A stretch of DNA of 64,000 nucleotides from an uncultured Rhodospirillales bacterium (GCA_938008885.1 CALLIV010000116.1:1366-65365); one strand, 5' to 3'. Shown: positions 32,570 to 60,368, counted from the stretch's first letter. Program-made: numbers and translations. Notes: a model not told the origin generated them from the letters alone.

Positions 32570-32818
32570 GATCGTCCGCGAACGGCCCTTTGCTTGGGAT
32601 GGCGGTCGGCGAGACATGGGGCCGGCCCGTAGCCCGTGAGAATCACCTATGGGTGAGGGTTCACGGGACGCGTGCCGGAGGCTGTGGCATAGTCCAACAA
32701 CATGAGCACGTCACGCTGTGATCACGAATCTGTGAGCAACCCAGGCCTGCGCCATGCCTCTGGACAGGTTCGTTCCGGGTCCGGCGGGAATGAGCCTGCT
32801 GCGGGCGATCGCAATCGC

Positions 32819-33949
32819 ATGGCCGACACCACTCGCAACGGCCGCCTCCCGCTTGGCGAGGCGACACACGATCACACCGGGGACGCGCGGGCCGAGCGAG
32901 GGCCGGGTGAGCACGCTCATGCCGGGCACGGGCATGCCGGGGACGCGAATGCCGGGGACGGGCACGACCATGGCGGGCACGACCACGCCGGGCACGAGCA
33001 TGCCGAGCAGGGGCATGCCGAGCAGGGGCATGTCCACGGGGGCGGCGGCCACCACCATCACCATCATGGTCCGCCCGTGGGCAATGACCGCGCCTTCGCG
33101 ATCGCCGCGGCTGCGAACACCGGCTTCGTGGTGGCCGAGATCGGCTTCGGCATCGCGGCGAACTCCGTCGCCCTGGTCGCCGACGCCGTGCACAACCTGG
33201 GCGACGTGCTCGCGCTGCTCCTCGGTTGGGGTGCCGCATGGCTGGGGCGGCGCCCACCGCGGGGGCGACGCACCTACGGGTGGGGACGCAGCTCGATCCT
33301 GGCCGCCCTGCTGAACGCGGCGATCCTGCTGGTGGGCGTGGGGGCGATCGCGGTCGAAGCGGTGCAGCGCCTGTTCGATCCGCAGCCGGTCGCCGAGATG
33401 ACGGTGATGATCGTCGCGGGGCTGGGGATCCTGGTGAACGGCGGCACCGCGCTGCTGTTCATGGCCGGCCGGGAGAAGGACCTGAACGTCAAGGCGCAGT
33501 TCCTCCATCTGGGCGGGGATGCGCTGATCTCGCTGGGCGTGGTGGTTGCGGCGCTGGCGATCCAGGTGACCGGCCTCGCCTGGATCGATCCGCTCGCCAG
33601 CATCGGCATTGCGATCGCGATCGCCGTCGGCACCTGGGGGCTGCTGCGCGAATCGGTCGATCTGGCGATGGACGCCGTCCCGCAGCAGGTCGAGCAGGCG
33701 GCGGTGGAGGGCTGGCTCGCCTCCCTGCCGGGCGTGGTGGAGGTGCATGACCTCCACATCTGGGGCCTCAGCACGACCGAGACCGCGCTGACGGCGCATC
33801 TCGTCTGCACCGGGGAGCCGGAGGACCGGCGCCCGCACGAGGTGGCCGCGCAATTGCGCCAGCGCTTCGGCATCGGCCACGCGACGCTGCAGATCGAGAG
33901 CGCGGACGATGCGGCCCTGTGCCGCCTCCGCCCGAACGAGATCGTCTGA
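32819..33949 (+). CDS. Cation diffusion facilitator (CzcD/ZitB-like) with His-rich N-terminal tail
   Basis: ADAVHNLGD, TYGWGRSSILAALLN, FLHLGGDA and HDLHIW motifs; His-rich repeats at 32870-33070. Confidence 0.92.
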   Translation: MADTTRNGRLPLGEATHDHTGDARAERGPGEHAHAGHGHAGDANAGDGHDHGGHDHAGHEHAEQGHAEQGHVHGGGGHHHHHHGPPVGNDRAFAIAAAANTGFVVAEIGFGIAANSVALVADAVHNLGDVLALLLGWGAAWLGRRPPRGRRTYGWGRSSILAALLNAAILLVGVGAIAVEAVQRLFDPQPVAEMTVMIVAGLGILVNGGTALLFMAGREKDLNVKAQFLHLGGDALISLGVVVAALAIQVTGLAWIDPLASIGIAIAIAVGTWGLLRESVDLAMDAVPQQVEQAAVEGWLASLPGVVEVHDLHIWGLSTTETALTAHLVCTGEPEDRRPHEVAAQLRQRFGIGHATLQIESADDAALCRLRPNEIV

Positions 33950-34035
33950 CCCGCTAAGCGTTCCGGCGTGGGGAGCGGTCGTCGAGGTGATGGCTGCGGG
34001 GGAGGGCCTTTGTGTCGCGGCCGATGAAGGCCCAC

Positions 34036-34087
34036 GGTGTCATGGCCGACGGGGCCGGGGCAGTACAGCGGGCCGGGACATGACACC
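34036..34087. repeat. Short REP-like palindrome
   Basis: ggtgtcatggcc...gggacatgacacc, with the same terminal motif as 20655. Confidence 0.7.
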
Positions 34088-34100
34088 GGGCCGACGCACG

Positions 34101-34134
34101 AAAAAAGAAAGGCGGTGCCGGGTTCGGCACCGCC
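34101..34134 (-). terminator. Rho-independent terminator
   Basis: Minus strand GGCGGTGCCG-AACC-CGGCACCGCC followed by TTTCTTTTTT. Confidence 0.9.
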
Positions 34135-34190
34135 AAGTTTGGGGAGGAGTCCAAGAGAGGAGCGACCGAGAAGATCTCGTCCGCTTCTCG
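34101..34190 (-). ncRNA. Candidate ~90-nt sRNA (SuhB/alpha-r8-like architecture)
   Basis: 5' hairpin GAGAAG...CTTCTC, CU-rich tract CTCCTCTCTTGGACTCCTCCCCAAACTT, intrinsic terminator, and an upstream FNR box at class II spacing. Confidence 0.65.
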
Positions 34191-34224
34191 AGGCTCACCA
34201 TGCCGTGAGCCGCGCCGGCCGCCA

Positions 34225-34238
34225 TTGATCTGGATCAA
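34225..34238. promoter_or_regulatory. FNR/FixK box
   Basis: Perfect TTGAT-CTGG-ATCAA; centre 34231.5; candidate -10 CATGGT at 34202-34197 (minus strand). Confidence 0.8.
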
Positions 34239-34300
34239 AGCCAGCGATTTTTCGTGGCACCACGAGCCACGCCGCGCCTTCGGCGACCCGGATGCCGCTC

Positions 34301-35698
34301 TCACGCCGACGCGGCGGCGATCCGGACCAGCGCTTCGTCGCGGCCCAGCGCGGCCAGAGTCGCATCGATCCCGGGGCTCACCGTACTGCCCGTCAGCGCC
34401 GCGCGCAGCGGTTGCGCCACCTGGCCCAGCTTCCGCTCCGTCGCCTCCGCGAAGGCGCGCAACGCCGCGTCCAGCGCCGCGACGGAGAAATCCGTCTGCG
34501 CCAGGGCCGGCGCGAGGTCGCGCAGCATCAGTTTCGCCTCGGGCGTCAGCGCCGCCGCGGCCTTCGGCTCGAAGGGCAGGGGGACGACGCGCGCGAGGAA
34601 GGCGGCCGCGTCCGCCAGCTCCACCACCGTCTTCGCCCGCTCCTTGAGCGCCGGCATCAGCGCGAGGATGCGTCCCGCGGCGATCGCGCCCAGCGACAGG
34701 TCGTGGCGGTGCGCGAGCCGCTGCAGCACCTCCCTCGTCAGCCGCTCGTCATCGGCCTGGCGGATGTACATGCCGTTCAGGTGGGTCAGCTTGGCGTAAT
34801 CCATCCGCGCCGCGCCGCGGTTGACGTCGACGATGTCGAACAGCCGGACCGCCTCCTCCATCGGCACGAACTCGAGGTCGCCATGCGACCACCCGAGCCG
34901 GAGGAGGTAGTTGCAGACGGCTTCGGGGAGGAAGCCCTGCTCGCGGAACTCGAGCACCGAGACGGCGCCATGCCGCTTCGACAGCTTCGCGCCGTCGGCG
35001 CCGTGGATCAGCGGGATGTGGGCGAAGGCCGGCGTCTCCCAGCCCATGGCCTGGTAGATCTGCACCTGGCGGAACGTGTTGGTCAGGTGATCGTCGCCAC
35101 GGATGACGTGGGTGATGCCCATGTCGTGGTCGTCCACCACGACGGCGTGCAGGTAGGTGGGCGTGCCGTCGCTGCGCAGGATGATCATGTCGTCCAGCTC
35201 GCCATTCGCGACGCGGACGGTGCCCTGCACCAGGTCCTCGACCACGGTCTCGCCCTCGCGCGGCGCCTTCAGGCGGATGGCGGGGGAGACGCCCTCCGGC
35301 GCCTCGGAGGGGTCGCGGTCGCGCCAACGCCCGTCGTAGCGGGGGGAGCGGCCCTCGGCGATCGCCTGCTCGCGCATCTGCTTGAGCTCGTCCGCCGTGC
35401 AGTAGCAGCGATAGGCGCGGCCGGCCTCCAGCAACTGGTGCGCGACCTCCGCATGGCGGGCGCTGCGGGTCGACTGGAACACGGTCTGGCCGTCATGCTT
35501 GAGGCCCAGCCAGTCGAGGCCTTCCAGGATCACCTGGGTTGCCGCGTCGGTGGAGCGTTCGCGGTCCGTGTCTTCGATCCGCAGCAGGAACTCGCCGCCG
35601 GTGTGGCGGCTGTAGAGATAGTTGAACAGCGCGGTGCGGGCGCCGCCGATATGCAGCAGGCCGGTGGGGCTGGGGGCGAAGCGGGTGCGGACGGTCAT
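34301..35698 (-). CDS. gltX: Glutamate--tRNA ligase
   Basis: Start ATG 35698. [16 protein letters not shown] (HIGH), LRIEDTD, IRGDDH and KLSKR motifs. Confidence 0.97.
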
Positions 35699-35895
35699 GC
35701 GCAGCAGATAGTGCAGAACGGCGCTGGGTGGAACGCCCGGCGGCCGGGCGCGTGGACGGTGGGGATCATGGCTGCTTCGCAGGCCGGGGGCGATGGCGGC
35801 TCCTGGAGCGGGGCTCCGCTGTTGCTGATCCACGGCCTGTTCTGTGCCGTAGGCATTCACCCGCTGGTGAGAGGTGCGGGCGCACATTCGCCCGC

Positions 35896-58373: not shown

Positions 58374-59399
58374 CTAGAGGGTGATGACCATGCGCCCGTC
58401 GACCTTGCCCGACTTCAGGTCACCGAAGATCCCGTTGATGTCATCCAGCTTGGCCGAATGGTAGTGCACCTTGACCTTGCCCTCGGCGGCGAAGGCGATC
58501 GCCTCGGCCAGGTCCTTCCGCGTGCCGACGATGGAGCCGCGGATGGTGATCCGCTTCAGCACCACGTCGAAGATCGGCGTCTGGAAGTCGCCCGGCGGCA
58601 GTCCGACCAGGCTGATCGTGCCGTGCCGGCGTGTCAGGTCAATCGCCTGGCGGAACGCCGGCGGAGAGACGGCGGTCACCAGCACGCCATGCGCGCCGCC
58701 CGAGGTCTTCGCCACCACCTGCGCCACCGCATCCGGATCGCGCGCGTTCACCGTGGCGTCGGCGCCCAGGGTGCGGGCGAGCGCCAGCTTGTCCTCGGTC
58801 ACGTCCAACGCGACCACGTGCAGTCCCATGGCCTTGGCGTATTGCACCGCGACGTGGCCGAGCCCGCCGATGCCGGAGATGGCGACCCATTCGCCGGGCC
58901 GCGCCTCGGTCTCCTTCAGGCCCTTGTAGGTGGTGACGCCGGCGCACAGGATAGGCGCGAGGGCGGCGAAGTCCGGGTTGGCGGGCAAGCGGCCGACATA
59001 GTCCGCGGCGCCGATCGCGTATTCGGCGAAGCTGCCGTTCACGCTGTAGCCGCTGTCGTTCTGCTTCTCGCACAACGTTTCCCAGCCGGTCATGCAGTGC
59101 TCGCAGCGGCCGCAGGCGTCGTGCAGCCAGGCGATACCGACCGGGTCGCCTTCCTTCAGGCCGACCACGCCGGGGCCGAGGGCGGCGACGATGCCGGCGC
59201 CTTCGTGGCCGGGGATGAACGGGGCGGTGGGCTTGACGGGCCAGTCGCCGTCGGCGGCGTGCAGGTCGGTGTGGCAGACGCCGGTGGCGACGATCTTGAC
59301 CAGCACCTCACCGAAGCCGGGGGTCGGGACGGGCACGTCCTCGATGCTCAGTGGGGCGCCGAGGCGGCGGACCACCGCGGCCTTCATCATCTTCGTCAT
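58374..59399 (-). CDS. adhP: Zn-dependent alcohol dehydrogenase, AdhP type
   Basis: [33 protein letters not shown] and [10 protein letters not shown] motifs. Confidence 0.95.
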
Positions 59400-59444: not shown

Positions 59445-60368
59445 TCACCCGGCATTGAGGTCGATCAATCGCGTGCCGTCCTGTCGTGCCACGGGGCGAG
59501 CGGGGGCGTGCGGCCTGTTCCAGGCGACAGGCTGCGGCGCGAGCGGGATGACGCGCAGCACCACGAACCAGGGATAGCGCGTGTCCAGCACGAGCCCGTC
59601 CGGGGTCGCGAGCCGGCCCTCCGCCGTGACCGGCACGTGCTTGAGCGTCACCGCGTCCCCCACATTGCCGCCCACGACGCTGATCTGGCCGGCGATCGGC
59701 AGGGAGACGACGATATCGCAGTGCGCGGGAAACGGGTCGCCGGTCGGGAGGTCGTCGAACCGCATGGTGGCGGCCGGACCGCGCCCGACGCAGATCAGGT
59801 CGCCGGGGCGCGGGGCGTACGCTTCGGGGCGTTTGGCGTTGACCACCCATCGCGTGCTGGCGTTGCCCGTCATGCGGGCAGCGGCGTTGATGTAGGCGGC
59901 ATGGTCGGCGGCGTAGGGGAAGTAGGGGCCCGCACCGGCGATCCGCATCACGTAGGAGACGAACGCCGCCGACCAGGCGAAGGCGCCGTCCCGGCTCGCG
60001 GGGAACACCCGGCCGCCGGCATCGTGCTTGCCGGTCCAGCCACTCTCGGGGGAGCCGGCATCGAGTCCCAGCCACCAGTACTCGCCGACGCGCTGCCAGT
60101 ATCCGGACTGCCGCTCCGGTTTCTCGTCCGGCGCTGGGGGCGGACGCGAGCCCGGTGGGTCGTCGTCCACCAGCTGACCCCACAGGCGCCACTCGCGTAG
60201 TGCAATCGACACCACAGATGTTGTGGAGAACGGCTCATACGGCTTGGTCGCGAACGGGGGCACGTGCGCATCGGGCGCGATCCGTGCCGGAGCGCAGCCG
60301 GCAAGTCCGAGTCCGCACGCCGATACGATCGCAAGCGCAGGCAGGCCATTGCGAGACCAGAACGCCAC
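59445..60368 (-). CDS. DUF2272 family lipoprotein (CHAP-like putative cell-wall hydrolase)
   Basis: Lipobox LAGC; WSAAFVSYVM, PRPGDLIC and AHCDIVV motifs; start GTG 60368 or 60395. Confidence 0.75.
   Translation of the reverse strand: MAFWSRNGLPALAIVSACGLGLAGCAPARIAPDAHVPPFATKPYEPFSTTSVVSIALREWRLWGQLVDDDPPGSRPPPAPDEKPERQSGYWQRVGEYWWLGLDAGSPESGWTGKHDAGGRVFPASRDGAFAWSAAFVSYVMRIAGAGPYFPYAADHAAYINAAARMTGNASTRWVVNAKRPEAYAPRPGDLICVGRGPAATMRFDDLPTGDPFPAHCDIVVSLPIAGQISVVGGNVGDAVTLKHVPVTAEGRLATPDGLVLDTRYPWFVVLRVIPLAPQPVAWNRPHAPARPVARQDGTRLIDLNAG
59455..59468 (-). promoter_or_regulatory. FNR/FixK-like box upstream of adhP
   Basis: Minus strand TTGAT-CGAC-CTCAA (1 mismatch); candidate -10 TAGATC at 59431-59426. 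Confidence 0.65.

What the first reader, a model, noticed from the sequence alone, without database searches (positions are those of the whole stretch)
34101..34238. Candidate FNR/FixK-activated sRNA downstream of gltX
Seen: a perfect TTGAT-N4-ATCAA box at 34225-34238. On the minus strand, placing its centre at -41.5 puts the start at about 34190, with CATGGT at the -10 position. That start coincides with a 5' hairpin (GAGAAG...CTTCTC), followed by a CU-rich anti-SD tract (CUCCUCUCUUGGACUCCUCCCCAAACUU), a 10-bp terminator stem and UUUCUUUUUU. Known: class II FNR/FixK sites centre near -41.5, and alpha-r8/SuhB-family sRNAs (MmgR, GsrN) have a hairpin, a CU-rich tract and a terminator. Inference: an ~90-nt low-oxygen-induced riboregulator that pairs with GGAGG RBSs. 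I know of no description of one in this lineage, but have not searched.
Basis: partly seen in the sequence, partly recalled or inferred. Interest (0 to 1): 0.8.

Follow-up and report, generated by a model that had tools for sequence, protein, structure and literature searches.

The report
FNR-box-driven alphaR8 small RNA after gltX
Just after the gltX gene lies a conserved ~90-nt regulatory RNA, a diverged sibling of the alphaproteobacterial alphaR8/MmgR/SuhB family, and its promoter always carries a binding site of the low-oxygen FNR/FixK type, so it is probably an oxygen-controlled riboregulator; expression could not be tested.

Summary
The only perfect TTGAT-N4-ATCAA box in the window (34238-34225) lies 33 nt upstream of a structured RNA that ends in a 10-bp terminator and a U tract (34190-34101, minus strand).

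**Conservation.** In 33 unique homologous loci, almost all uncultured Acetobacteraceae, the box is always present. Box-to-RNA spacing is 33 nt in 32 of 33, and a CATnnT -10 sits at -12 to -7, while the spacer between them is unconserved. Canonical siblings in the same genus lack the box (0 of 21).

**The RNA.**
- It scores below threshold on Rfam RF00519, suhB/mmgR (33.8 bits against a cut-off of 41; E = 2.8e-5).
- A model built from it finds the genome's canonical alphaR8 copies in return.
- 17 of 26 base pairs covary.
- The family 10-mer UUUCCUCCCU has become ACUCCUCCCC, shown in a hairpin loop.

**Regulators.** The genome encodes an FnrL-like protein, a FixL-FixJ-FixK cluster and Hfq. It has 17 perfect boxes where 0.16 are expected, in front of hemN, nap, HPF and others.

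- The GAGAAG/CTTCTC hairpin is not the conserved fold.
- No searched paper links GsrN to SuhB.
- The RNA shares its terminator with gltX, so it lies in the gltX 3'UTR with its own promoter.

**Limits.** This scan has noted the same module before on other DNA (e1-4215913, e1-5132239).

**Verdict:** a new variant of a known kind.

The parts
34301..35887 (-). gltX (glutamyl-tRNA synthetase). This is the longest ORF; homologues align from about residue 58, so the true start is probably near 35720.
   Evidence: Pfam tRNA-synt_1c 3.6e-94 and Anticodon_2 4.5e-30. tblastn against relatives gives 58-90% identity.
34244..34253 (-). A/T-rich tract GAAAAATCGC at about -63 to -54, a possible UP-element-like sequence
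   Evidence: The 20 nt upstream of the box average 55% A+T in a 70% GC genome. 31 of 33 loci have an A/T run there. The role is inferred.
34225..34238 (.). FNR/FixK-type box TTGATCCAGATCAA, centred at -41.5 relative to 34190
   Evidence: Only perfect match in the window. Present in 33 of 33 unique homologous loci: TTGAT-N4-ATCAA in 24 and TTGAT-N4-GTCAA in 9. Absent from 21 of 21 canonical siblings.
34197..34202 (-). -10 hexamer CATGGT (family consensus CATnnT)
   Evidence: Aligned column counts are C 33/33, A 33/33, T 26/33 and final T 30/33, always 22 nt after the box.
34101..34190 (-). Predicted sRNA, ~90 nt, with the start inferred at C34190 (or G34189)
   Evidence: MFE -42.5 kcal/mol, z = -5.5. 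RF00519 33.8 bits over 34097-34167. Own model R1 scores 100.1 bits here. 17 of 26 pairs covary.
34157..34189 (-). SL1, a composite 5' stem-loop: GAG:CUC, AGCG:CGCU, and inner CGAGA-UCU-UCUCG. Its 3' strand holds the first CU tract, GCUCCUC.
   Evidence: all 33 homologues fold alike. In one search, 11 of the 12 pairs in helices 1 and 2 show compensatory changes.
34139..34154 (-). SL2: UUGG[ACUCCUCC]CCAA. The loop at 34150-34143 presents the anti-Shine-Dalgarno seed CUCCUCC(CC).
   Evidence: Predicted in every homologue. The sequence is invariant, partly because the loci were selected with it, so covariation says nothing for or against. It corresponds to the alphaR8 10-mer with 7 of 10 identical positions.
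34101..34134 (-). Intrinsic terminator: 10-bp stem, AACC loop, UUUCUUUUUU. It probably also terminates gltX.
   Evidence: In one search, 6 of the 10 pairs in helix 4 show compensatory changes (for example CG 18 / UA 15 / UG 6). No terminator lies between the gltX stop and the box.
32702..33949 (+). Convergent downstream gene, a cation diffusion facilitator. It is not part of the module.
   Evidence: Pfam Cation_efflux 1.6e-41 and ZT_dimer. It is the neighbour only here and in L051.

Best explanation
This is a small-RNA gene: a diverged paralogue ('sibling') of the alphaproteobacterial alphaR8 family (MmgR, SuhB, SisA-D; Rfam RF00519). It sits in the 3' untranslated region of gltX and has its own promoter.

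The promoter has class II Crp/Fnr architecture: a TTGAT-N4-ATCAA box centred about 41.5 bp upstream of the start, a CATnnT -10, no -35, and an A/T-rich tract upstream.

Proposed mechanism:
1. When oxygen is low, a FixK-type or FnrL-type activator encoded in the genome binds the box.
2. It recruits RNA polymerase, giving a ~90-nt RNA that starts at about 34190 and ends at the terminator shared with gltX.
3. The RNA folds into a long 5' stem-loop, a small hairpin whose 8-nt loop displays CUCCUCC, and the terminator.
4. With Hfq, the CU-rich loop pairs with GGAGG-type ribosome-binding sites and lowers translation of a target set that is still unknown.

Shown here: the sequence features, their conservation and fixed geometry, the RNA structure by covariation, homology to alphaR8, and the presence of the regulators, a box regulon and hfq.

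Inferred: the start site, activation by low oxygen, which regulator acts, Hfq dependence, and the targets.
For: **Homology**
- RF00519 is the best Rfam match, full length (33.8 bits, E = 2.8e-5).
- The genome holds five such copies, two of them above the cut-off.
- Model R1, built only from this subfamily, finds the canonical copies at 40-55 bits.

**Structure**
- z = -5.5.
- All 33 homologues fold the same way.
- 92.6% of cells are paired, against at most 61.7% in the slid controls. 17 of 26 pairs have compensatory changes. 0 of 500 shuffles reached the observed values.

**Promoter**
- A search with a 24-mer taken from inside the RNA, blind to the box, gave 31 of 31 usable loci with a TTGA-N6-TCAA box.
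- 33 of 33 unique loci have the box, spacing is 33 nt in 32 of 33, and the -10 C and A are invariant, while the spacer is unconserved.
- Canonical siblings of the same genus have the box in 0 of 21 loci.

**Independence from gltX**
- The module occurs with the same geometry behind other genes (L015, L016, L048, L054, L059).
- FNR boxes with the same 22-nt distance to a -10 precede alphaR8 RNAs with the canonical core in two further genera (L094-L097).

**Regulators and regulon**
- An FnrL-like protein with a Cx2Cx7C motif and an ETVSR recognition helix, and a FixK-like protein beside FixL and FixJ.
- 17 perfect boxes against 0.16 expected, lying before hemN, nap, a ribosome hibernation factor, a Host_attach protein, a CBS protein and Crp-family genes.
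- hfq is present.
Against: - The start site and any oxygen response are therefore unobserved.
- The box alone cannot tell FNR from FixK, or from NO-sensing or other Crp/Fnr paralogues. The genome has about 11 family members.
- The Rfam score is below the gathering threshold, and the defining 10-mer is altered.
- A single-genome duplex scan showed no enrichment of seed-complementary start regions over shuffled seeds, so there is no support yet for particular targets.
- gltX transcription must run through the element, so some or all of the RNA could come from processing.
- The SL2 hairpin has no covariation support because it never varies.
Confidence: 0.6

Rival explanations
1. The RNA is only the 3' end of gltX mRNA. 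The structured region is the gltX 3'UTR and terminator, perhaps released by RNase processing, and there is no internal promoter.
For: No intrinsic terminator lies between the gltX stop and the element. In most relatives the box starts 11-27 nt after the stop. Linkage to gltX holds across GltX identities of 58-90%. No transcript data are available.
Against: - The box, the fixed 33-nt spacing and the -10 are conserved while the spacer drifts.
- The same box-plus-RNA unit occurs behind unrelated genes.
- The RNA is homologous to free-standing alphaR8 genes.

Processing may well add to promoter-driven synthesis, but it does not explain the promoter elements.
Confidence: 0.1
2. The promoter is real, but the box is read by a Crp/Fnr-family paralogue that answers another signal (nitric oxide as with NnrR/Dnr, redox state, a metabolite or a cyclic nucleotide). 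The RNA would then not be an oxygen-responsive regulator.
For: The genome has about 11 Crp/Fnr-family genes, including a third FixK/FNR-like protein and two FtrB-like proteins. None reaches an NCBIfam equivalog cut-off. Paralogues of this family often share the TTGA-N6-TCAA site (general knowledge of the family).
Against: Genes behind the other perfect boxes are the usual low-oxygen set: hemN, nap, a hibernation factor, Host_attach and CBS proteins. An FnrL-like protein with the iron-sulfur cysteine motif is present, as is a FixL-FixJ-FixK cluster with FixJ above its cut-off.
Confidence: 0.2
3. The RNA acts mainly by RNA-RNA or RNA-protein titration, for example as the partner of a CrfA-like sponge or by occupying Hfq, and not by repressing mRNAs at their ribosome-binding sites.
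For: In Caulobacter the alphaR8 core pairs with the sponge RNA CrfA (PMC12559287). The single-genome scan found no excess of seed-complementary start regions.
Against: In the same paper CrfA is described as competing with mRNA targets for SisA. SuhB of Sphingopyxis represses thnR translation (bioRxiv 10.64898/2025.12.09.693200). The CU-rich loop is the standard anti-SD design. No sponge candidate was sought or found here.
Confidence: 0.1

Closest known systems
alphaR8 sRNA family (Rfam RF00519 'suhB'): MmgR of Sinorhizobium meliloti, SuhB of Sphingopyxis granuli TFA, SisA-D of Caulobacter crescentus
   Same: - It is the best Rfam match, over the full length, and the own model detects canonical copies in return.
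- It has a Rho-independent terminator and a CU-rich core of the CCUCCC type followed by AAACUUGGCGG, after a weak hairpin.
- It is one of several copies per genome with unrelated promoters, as described for SisA-D (PMC12559287).
- hfq is present.
   Different: - The score is below the gathering cut-off (33.8 against 41).
- The 10-mer is ACUCCUCCCC, not UUUCCUCCCU: three bases are missing relative to the genome's own canonical copies, which read GGACGUUUCCUCCCUAAACUU.
- The core is predicted in a hairpin loop, not in a free single strand.
- It lies after gltX, not beside an FGase gene.
- Its promoter is of the FNR/FixK type. MmgR is under NtrC and AniA (PMC7143759), and SuhB is under a LysR-type regulator.
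FnrS of Escherichia coli (and AniS of Neisseria, from my own knowledge): FNR-activated Hfq-dependent sRNAs
   Same: It is a short Hfq-type sRNA behind a promoter with an FNR box. The expected logic is the same: the non-coding arm of the low-oxygen regulon represses functions that are dispensable without oxygen (FnrS role as reviewed in PMC8139620).
   Different: There is no sequence or structural relationship: no Rfam match to those families at any threshold used. It belongs to a different RNA lineage (alphaR8), and its activity and oxygen response are untested.
PcrZ of Rhodobacter (Cereibacter) sphaeroides
   Same: It is an alphaproteobacterial sRNA induced at low oxygen and dependent on FnrL (PMC8139620).
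   Different: For PcrZ the direct regulator is thought to be PrrA, and FnrL control may be indirect. Here a consensus FNR/FixK box sits at the class II position. The two RNAs are unrelated.
3'UTR-embedded sRNAs with their own promoter (for example NarS at the 3' end of narK; DapZ and MicL, from my own knowledge)
   Same: The RNA shares its terminator with the upstream mRNA, and no terminator intervenes. NarS also depends on FNR.
   Different: The promoter lies after the stop codon, not inside the coding region. NarS is thought to arise by processing of narK mRNA. The RNAs are not homologous.

Membership tests
alphaR8 / Rfam RF00519 (suhB, mmgR) | Score at or above the Rfam gathering threshold (41 bits) | tested here: not met
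   33.8 bits, full-length match 1-77 (E = 2.8e-5 over 501 nt; 7.4e-5 genome-wide). Two other copies in the genome pass, at 57.2 and 52.8 bits.
alphaR8 / Rfam RF00519 (suhB, mmgR) | Detectable homology to accepted members | tested here: met
   Model R1, built only from the gltX-linked subfamily, hits the canonical copies L001 (55 bits, 2.7e-12), L002 (40.2 bits) and L003 (40.1 bits). The stretch UUGGAC...CCUCCC.AAACUUGGCGG is shared.
alphaR8 / Rfam RF00519 (suhB, mmgR) | Internal single-stranded 10-mer UUUCCUCCCU downstream of a weak hairpin (PMC12559287) | tested here: not met
   The sequence here is ACUCCUCCCC (7 of 10 identical). It is predicted as the loop plus the 3' strand of a 4-bp hairpin. 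It is a variant of the motif, not the motif.
alphaR8 / Rfam RF00519 (suhB, mmgR) | Rho-independent terminator | tested here: met
   A 10-bp stem plus a U tract, with 6 of 10 pairs showing compensatory changes.
alphaR8 / Rfam RF00519 (suhB, mmgR) | Linkage to an N-formylglutamate amidohydrolase gene (true of the principal copy only) | tested here: not met
   The FGase genes lie on contigs C53 and C125. The five copies lie on C43, C92, C29, C116 and C22. Siblings in Caulobacter also lack this linkage.
alphaR8 / Rfam RF00519 (suhB, mmgR) | Association with Hfq | not testable with these tools
   Only the presence of an hfq gene could be shown (111.8 bits).
Class II FNR/FixK-activated promoter | Palindromic TTGAT-N4-ATCAA site | tested here: met
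   Perfect at 34238-34225 and kept in 33 of 33 homologues.
Class II FNR/FixK-activated promoter | Site centred near -41.5 relative to the transcription start | tested here: inconclusive
   The start is not mapped. Relative to the conserved CATnnT hexamer, the centre lies 29.5 bp upstream of its first base, which puts the hexamer at -12 to -7 if the centre is at -41.5. The spacing is invariant in 32 of 33 loci.
Class II FNR/FixK-activated promoter | A cognate regulator encoded in the genome | tested here: met
   FnrL-like protein with Cx2Cx7C and ETVSR; FixK-like protein with ETVCR next to FixL and FixJ. The Crp-family proteins fall below the equivalog cut-offs; FixJ is above its cut-off.
Class II FNR/FixK-activated promoter | Expression that depends on low oxygen and on the regulator | not testable with these tools
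FnrS / AniS families | Sequence and structure match to the family model | tested here: not met
   No such hit in the Rfam scans of the window or of 33900-34400 at E up to 10. The resemblance is functional only.

The most novel reading that the evidence does not exclude
A duplicated alphaR8 sibling gained a FixK/FnrL-dependent promoter and a shifted seed (CUCCUCCCC), and became the non-coding arm of the low-oxygen regulon in a set of uncultured Acetobacteraceae. That would make it an independently evolved alphaproteobacterial counterpart of FnrS. Because it sits inside the gltX 3'UTR, the same seed would be made constitutively as part of gltX mRNA and inducibly as a free sRNA, giving two outputs from one locus.
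Probability: 0.35. Interest if true: 0.6.

Novelty: new variant of a known kind. Interest (0 to 1): 0.45.

Why it matters
In the papers I could search, no sRNA of the alphaR8 family is tied to oxygen, and no alphaproteobacterial sRNA has a consensus FNR/FixK box at the class II position. PcrZ is the nearest case, and its FnrL control may be indirect.

This locus gives a clean, testable example of how sibling sRNAs diverge. The scaffold stays the same while the promoter, the seed and the genomic context change.

It would also add a post-transcriptional layer to the FixLJ-FixK/FnrL regulons of soil and peat Acetobacteraceae, whose oxygen physiology is mostly known from genomes alone.

The practical limit is that the carriers are almost all metagenome-assembled genomes. 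First tests will therefore need heterologous reporters or metatranscriptomes.

Tried and rejected
2. **Rfam at curated thresholds.** No hit anywhere in the window. Only the permissive scan shows the suhB relationship.
3. **Sigma-70 promoter scan.** Nothing in 33000-35000, as expected for a class II promoter without a -35.
GAGAAG/CTTCTC is rejected as the conserved fold, because most homologues have no CTTCTC partner.
5. **MAFFT plus RNAalifold.** This missed SL1 because the variable inner helix was misaligned. A covariance-model realignment recovered it. That alignment is fitted to the structure and leans towards it.
6. **Target prediction.**
   - Method: crude GC3-based gene calls, then RNAduplex of the seed against -35 to +12 of start codons.
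   - Result: the share of genes below -20 kcal/mol (0.139) lies inside the range of five shuffled seeds (0.055-0.31).
   - The top hits, such as clpX and serA leaders, are therefore not reported as targets.
7. **Palindrome over the -10.** GGCTCAC-N6-GTGAGCC (34211-34192) was considered as an operator or a processing hairpin. It is not kept in relatives, so I do not count it as part of the module.
8. **Small-protein reading.** ORFs such as 34040-34225 were considered and rejected. Homologues differ in length by non-multiples of three inside SL1 and the terminator loop.
9. **Distribution beyond the family.** The box-plus-core pattern was found in 0 of 400 other Alphaproteobacteria sampled, in 14 of 401 genomes of the family, from 6 of 143 genera, and in 13 of 77 genomes of the genus. 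All are lower bounds, because the pattern fixes the gap lengths.
10. **Literature.** No paper links SuhB, MmgR or alphaR8 with FNR or FixK control. The paper on the phylogeny of the family (reference 42 of PMC12559287) was not read.

Full report
**What is in the sequence**

Read on the minus strand, the region runs in this order:
- gltX ends with TGA at 34303-34301. Its identity rests on Pfam tRNA-synt_1c at 3.6e-94.
- An A-rich tract, GAAAAATCGC (34253-34244).
- The perfect palindrome TTGATCCAGATCAA (34238-34225).
- A 22-nt GC-rich spacer.
- CATGGT (34202-34197).
- Six bases later, TCGAGAAG.

From C34190 the sequence is CGAGAAGCGGACGAGAUCUUCUCGGUCGCUCCUCUCUUGGACUCCUCCCCAAACUUGGCGGUGCCGAACCCGGCACCGCCUUUCUUUUUU. 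The terminator scan finds exactly one site in 33000-35000: the 10-bp stem at 34134-34111 with its T tract. A cation-diffusion-facilitator gene converges from the other side (32702-33949).

**Is the box chance?**

No.
- It is the only perfect TTGAT-N4-ATCAA in the window.
- With one mismatch allowed there are 3 matches against 0.23 expected, and no shuffle reached 3.
- The whole 5.58-Mb genome (70.4% GC) has 17 perfect boxes against 0.16 expected from base composition.
- Those boxes sit in front of hemN, a ribosome hibernation factor, a Host_attach (PF10116) protein, a CBS-domain protein, a PfkB kinase, a BLUF protein, two Crp-family genes and the nap nitrate-reductase region. This is the kind of gene set usually placed under FNR or FixK control.

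**What the RNA is**

At curated thresholds Rfam reports nothing in the window. A permissive scan of 33900-34400 gives RF00519 (suhB, 'makes more granules regulator' mmgR) as by far the best match. It is full length (model positions 1-77) at 33.8 bits and E = 2.8e-5, below the gathering score of 41.

The genome holds five such elements:

| Contig | Score (bits) | Against the 41-bit cut-off |
|---|---|---|
| C43 | 57.2 | above |
| C92 | 52.8 | above |
| C29 | 35.5 | below |
| C116 (this one) | 33.8 | below |
| C22 | 32.1 | below |

The canonical copies read ...CUUGGACGUUUCCUCCCUAAACUUGGCGG... This one reads ...CUUGGAC---UCCUCCCCAAACUUGGCGG....

The family is defined as follows (Vogt et al. 2025, PMC12559287):
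- a Rho-independent terminator;
- a single-stranded 10-mer UUUCCUCCCU after a weak hairpin;
- presence across Alphaproteobacteria except Rickettsiales;
- one principal copy beside an FGase gene;
- in some genera, several siblings with unrelated promoters (SisA-D in Caulobacter).

The present element therefore looks like a diverged sibling:
- It has the terminator and the scaffold.
- Its 10-mer is 7 of 10 identical (ACUCCUCCCC).
- It is not near either FGase gene.

Homology is supported in both directions. A covariance model built only from this subfamily (R1) finds the canonical copies at 40-55 bits.

**Relatives**

A DNA search in 40 relatives found orthologous regions after gltX in the same genus, and the same module in other contexts.

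An exact 24-mer from inside the RNA (TTGGACTCCTCCCCAAACTTGGCG), which contains none of the promoter, found 33 loci in the species-representative genome collection. Nearly all are metagenome-assembled Acetobacteraceae. Every locus with enough upstream DNA (31 of 31) has a TTGA-N6-TCAA box at the same distance.

Pooled and made non-redundant, the data show the following:
- 33 of 33 unique loci carry the box: TTGAT-N4-ATCAA in 24 and TTGAT-N4-GTCAA in 9.
- The distance from the box to the conserved TCGAG is 33 nt in 32 of 33.
- The hexamer 22 nt after the box is CATnnT (C 33/33, A 33/33, T 26/33, last T 30/33).
- The 22-nt spacer shows no conservation.
- The 20 nt upstream of the box average 55% A+T, and 31 of 33 loci have an A/T run there.

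By contrast, 21 canonical siblings from the same genus, retrieved without regard to any box, have none. They carry a TTGCA-type -35 instead.

This is the signature of a promoter under selection, with class II Crp/Fnr geometry. If the box centre is at -41.5, the hexamer is at -12 to -7 and +1 is C34190. The invariant G34189 is an equally plausible purine start.

**RNA structure**

The 90-nt RNA folds at -42.5 kcal/mol with z = -5.5. It has three parts:
- **SL1** (34189-34157): GAG:CUC and AGCG:CGCU around an inner CGAGA-UCU-UCUCG.
- **SL2** (34154-34139): UUGG[ACUCCUCC]CCAA.
- **The terminator.**

All 33 homologues fold into the same three parts on their own, with quite different inner helices such as GACGGGC/GCCCGUC, CCAAGG/CCUUGG and GGUGA/UCACC.

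On the model-based alignment A3:
- 92.6% of cells pair, against at most 61.7% when the partners are slid.
- 17 of 26 pairs have compensatory changes.
- No shuffle of 500 reached the observed values.

That alignment is fitted to the structure, which favours it, but the independent single-sequence folds agree. SL2 never varies, partly because the loci were selected with that sequence, so it is neither supported nor contradicted.

It is neither the minimum-energy fold nor conserved.

**Relation to gltX**

About 35 of 45 loci examined lie directly after gltX on the same strand, over GltX identities of 58-90%. The gene on the other side varies.

In most relatives the box begins only 11-27 nt after the gltX stop codon, in an A/T-rich stretch with no room for a terminator. 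In this genome the gap is 62 nt and holds a small hairpin followed by A residues, which is not a terminator.

So gltX transcripts must run through the element and end at its terminator. The RNA is embedded in the gltX 3'UTR but has its own promoter. Some free RNA could also arise by processing.

The module also stands behind unrelated genes with identical geometry (L015/L048, L016/L054, L059). This argues that it is a transcription unit of its own.

**Regulators**

The genome has about 11 Crp/Fnr-family genes.
- One, on contig C85, has the N-terminal Cx2Cx7C cysteine motif and an ETVSR recognition helix. It matches FnrL best.
- One, on contig C97, matches FixK best (ETVCR). It lies divergent from a FixL-like heme-PAS kinase (best hit sens_FixL, 1.8e-157) and a FixJ that passes its equivalog cut-off (279.8 against 255). 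napA and a perfect box lie a few kb away.
- Two FtrB-like genes and a third FixK/FNR-like gene are present. One FtrB-like gene and the third FixK/FNR-like gene are themselves preceded by boxes.

None of the Crp-family proteins reaches an equivalog cut-off, so which of them reads this box is open. hfq is present.

**Distribution**

| Group searched | Genomes with the box-plus-core pattern |
|---|---|
| Same genus | 13 of 77 species genomes (9 of 44 high-quality) |
| Same family | 14 of 401 genomes, from 6 of 143 genera; 0 hits with the reversed control pattern |
| Other Alphaproteobacteria | 0 of 400 sampled, from about 185 families |

These are lower bounds, because the pattern fixes the gap ranges. 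In two further genera of the family, an FNR box with the same 22-nt distance to a -10 precedes alphaR8 RNAs that keep the canonical GUUUCCUCCCU core and are not near gltX (L094-L097). FNR-type control of alphaR8 siblings is thus a recurrent but patchy trait of this family.

**Mechanism**

I commit to this reading. A FixK- or FnrL-type activator bound at -41.5 turns on the RNA when oxygen is low. With Hfq, the RNA then uses the CU-rich SL2 loop (CUCCUCC, plus the flanking CC) to pair with GGAGG-type ribosome-binding sites and repress translation.

This follows from three things:
- the promoter anatomy shown here;
- the family's known mode of action: seed-dependent pairing on Hfq for SisA and translational repression of thnR by SuhB;
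- the logic of FnrS.

The first CU tract (GCUCCUC) is held in the 3' strand of SL1 in all homologues, which leaves the SL2 loop as the likely seed.

I could not identify targets. A crude single-genome duplex scan gave no enrichment over shuffled seeds.

**Comparison with what is known, and novelty**

- It works like FnrS but is unrelated to it.
- It belongs by descent to alphaR8 but fails two formal tests: the gathering score and the exact 10-mer.
- Known promoters of the family are under NtrC and AniA (MmgR; PMC7143759) or a LysR-type regulator (SuhB), or are uncharacterised and mutually unrelated (SisA-D).
- Full-text searches found no paper that links the family to FNR or FixK.
- No searched paper mentions both GsrN and SuhB, and the paper read names SisA-D as the Caulobacter alphaR8 members.

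Earlier notes of this scan describe the same gltX-linked module in another genome (e1-4215913) and an FNR-box alphaR8 sibling beside hemN in Acidocella (e1-5132239). They agree with what I found, but they are not independent evidence.

I rate this a new variant of a known kind: well supported by comparative evidence, experimentally untested, and of moderate interest.

Noticed in passing
L001, L018, L026, L031, L035 and other canonical alphaR8 loci (own genome C43:45207-45280 and relatives): Canonical siblings share a promoter with a TTGCA-type -35. Just upstream lies a motif TGCTGC-N3-GCA followed by an A-run. It resembles the CTGC-N3-GCAG site I recall for PhaR/AniA, the repressor of mmgR in S. 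meliloti. I did not check that resemblance.
   Followed up: no
window 34192-34211: A perfect inverted repeat, GGCTCAC-N6-GTGAGCC, overlaps the predicted -10. It is not kept in relatives, although several have a short GGCA-N5-TGCC repeat at the same place.
   Followed up: partly
window 59455-59468: A near-consensus box, TTGAGGTCGATCAA, lies 56 nt upstream of a zinc-type alcohol dehydrogenase gene (58374-59399, minus strand). This gene is a likely further member of the same regulon.
   Followed up: partly
It is probably not a promoter site.
   Followed up: no
own genome, contig C97:83424-91738 (outside the window): A low-oxygen regulatory island: napA with a perfect FNR box at 86510, then fixL-like, a single-domain receiver and fixJ, divergent from a fixK-like gene.
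   Followed up: yes
L028, L032, L033 (relatives of the same genus): Canonical alphaR8 copies occur as tandem pairs about 200 nt apart, each with its own near-identical promoter. This matches the adjacent siblings reported for other genera.
   Followed up: no
own genome C22:4397-4471 (L005) and C29:2726-2801 (L003): Two more sub-threshold suhB-like elements have different cores (AGCCUCCCUGUAUACUU and GUUUCCCCCCCAAACUU) and their own upstream regions. The C29 type recurs in relatives (L017, L030, L036) behind a CTTGAAC...CCCTATAT promoter-like sequence.
   Followed up: no
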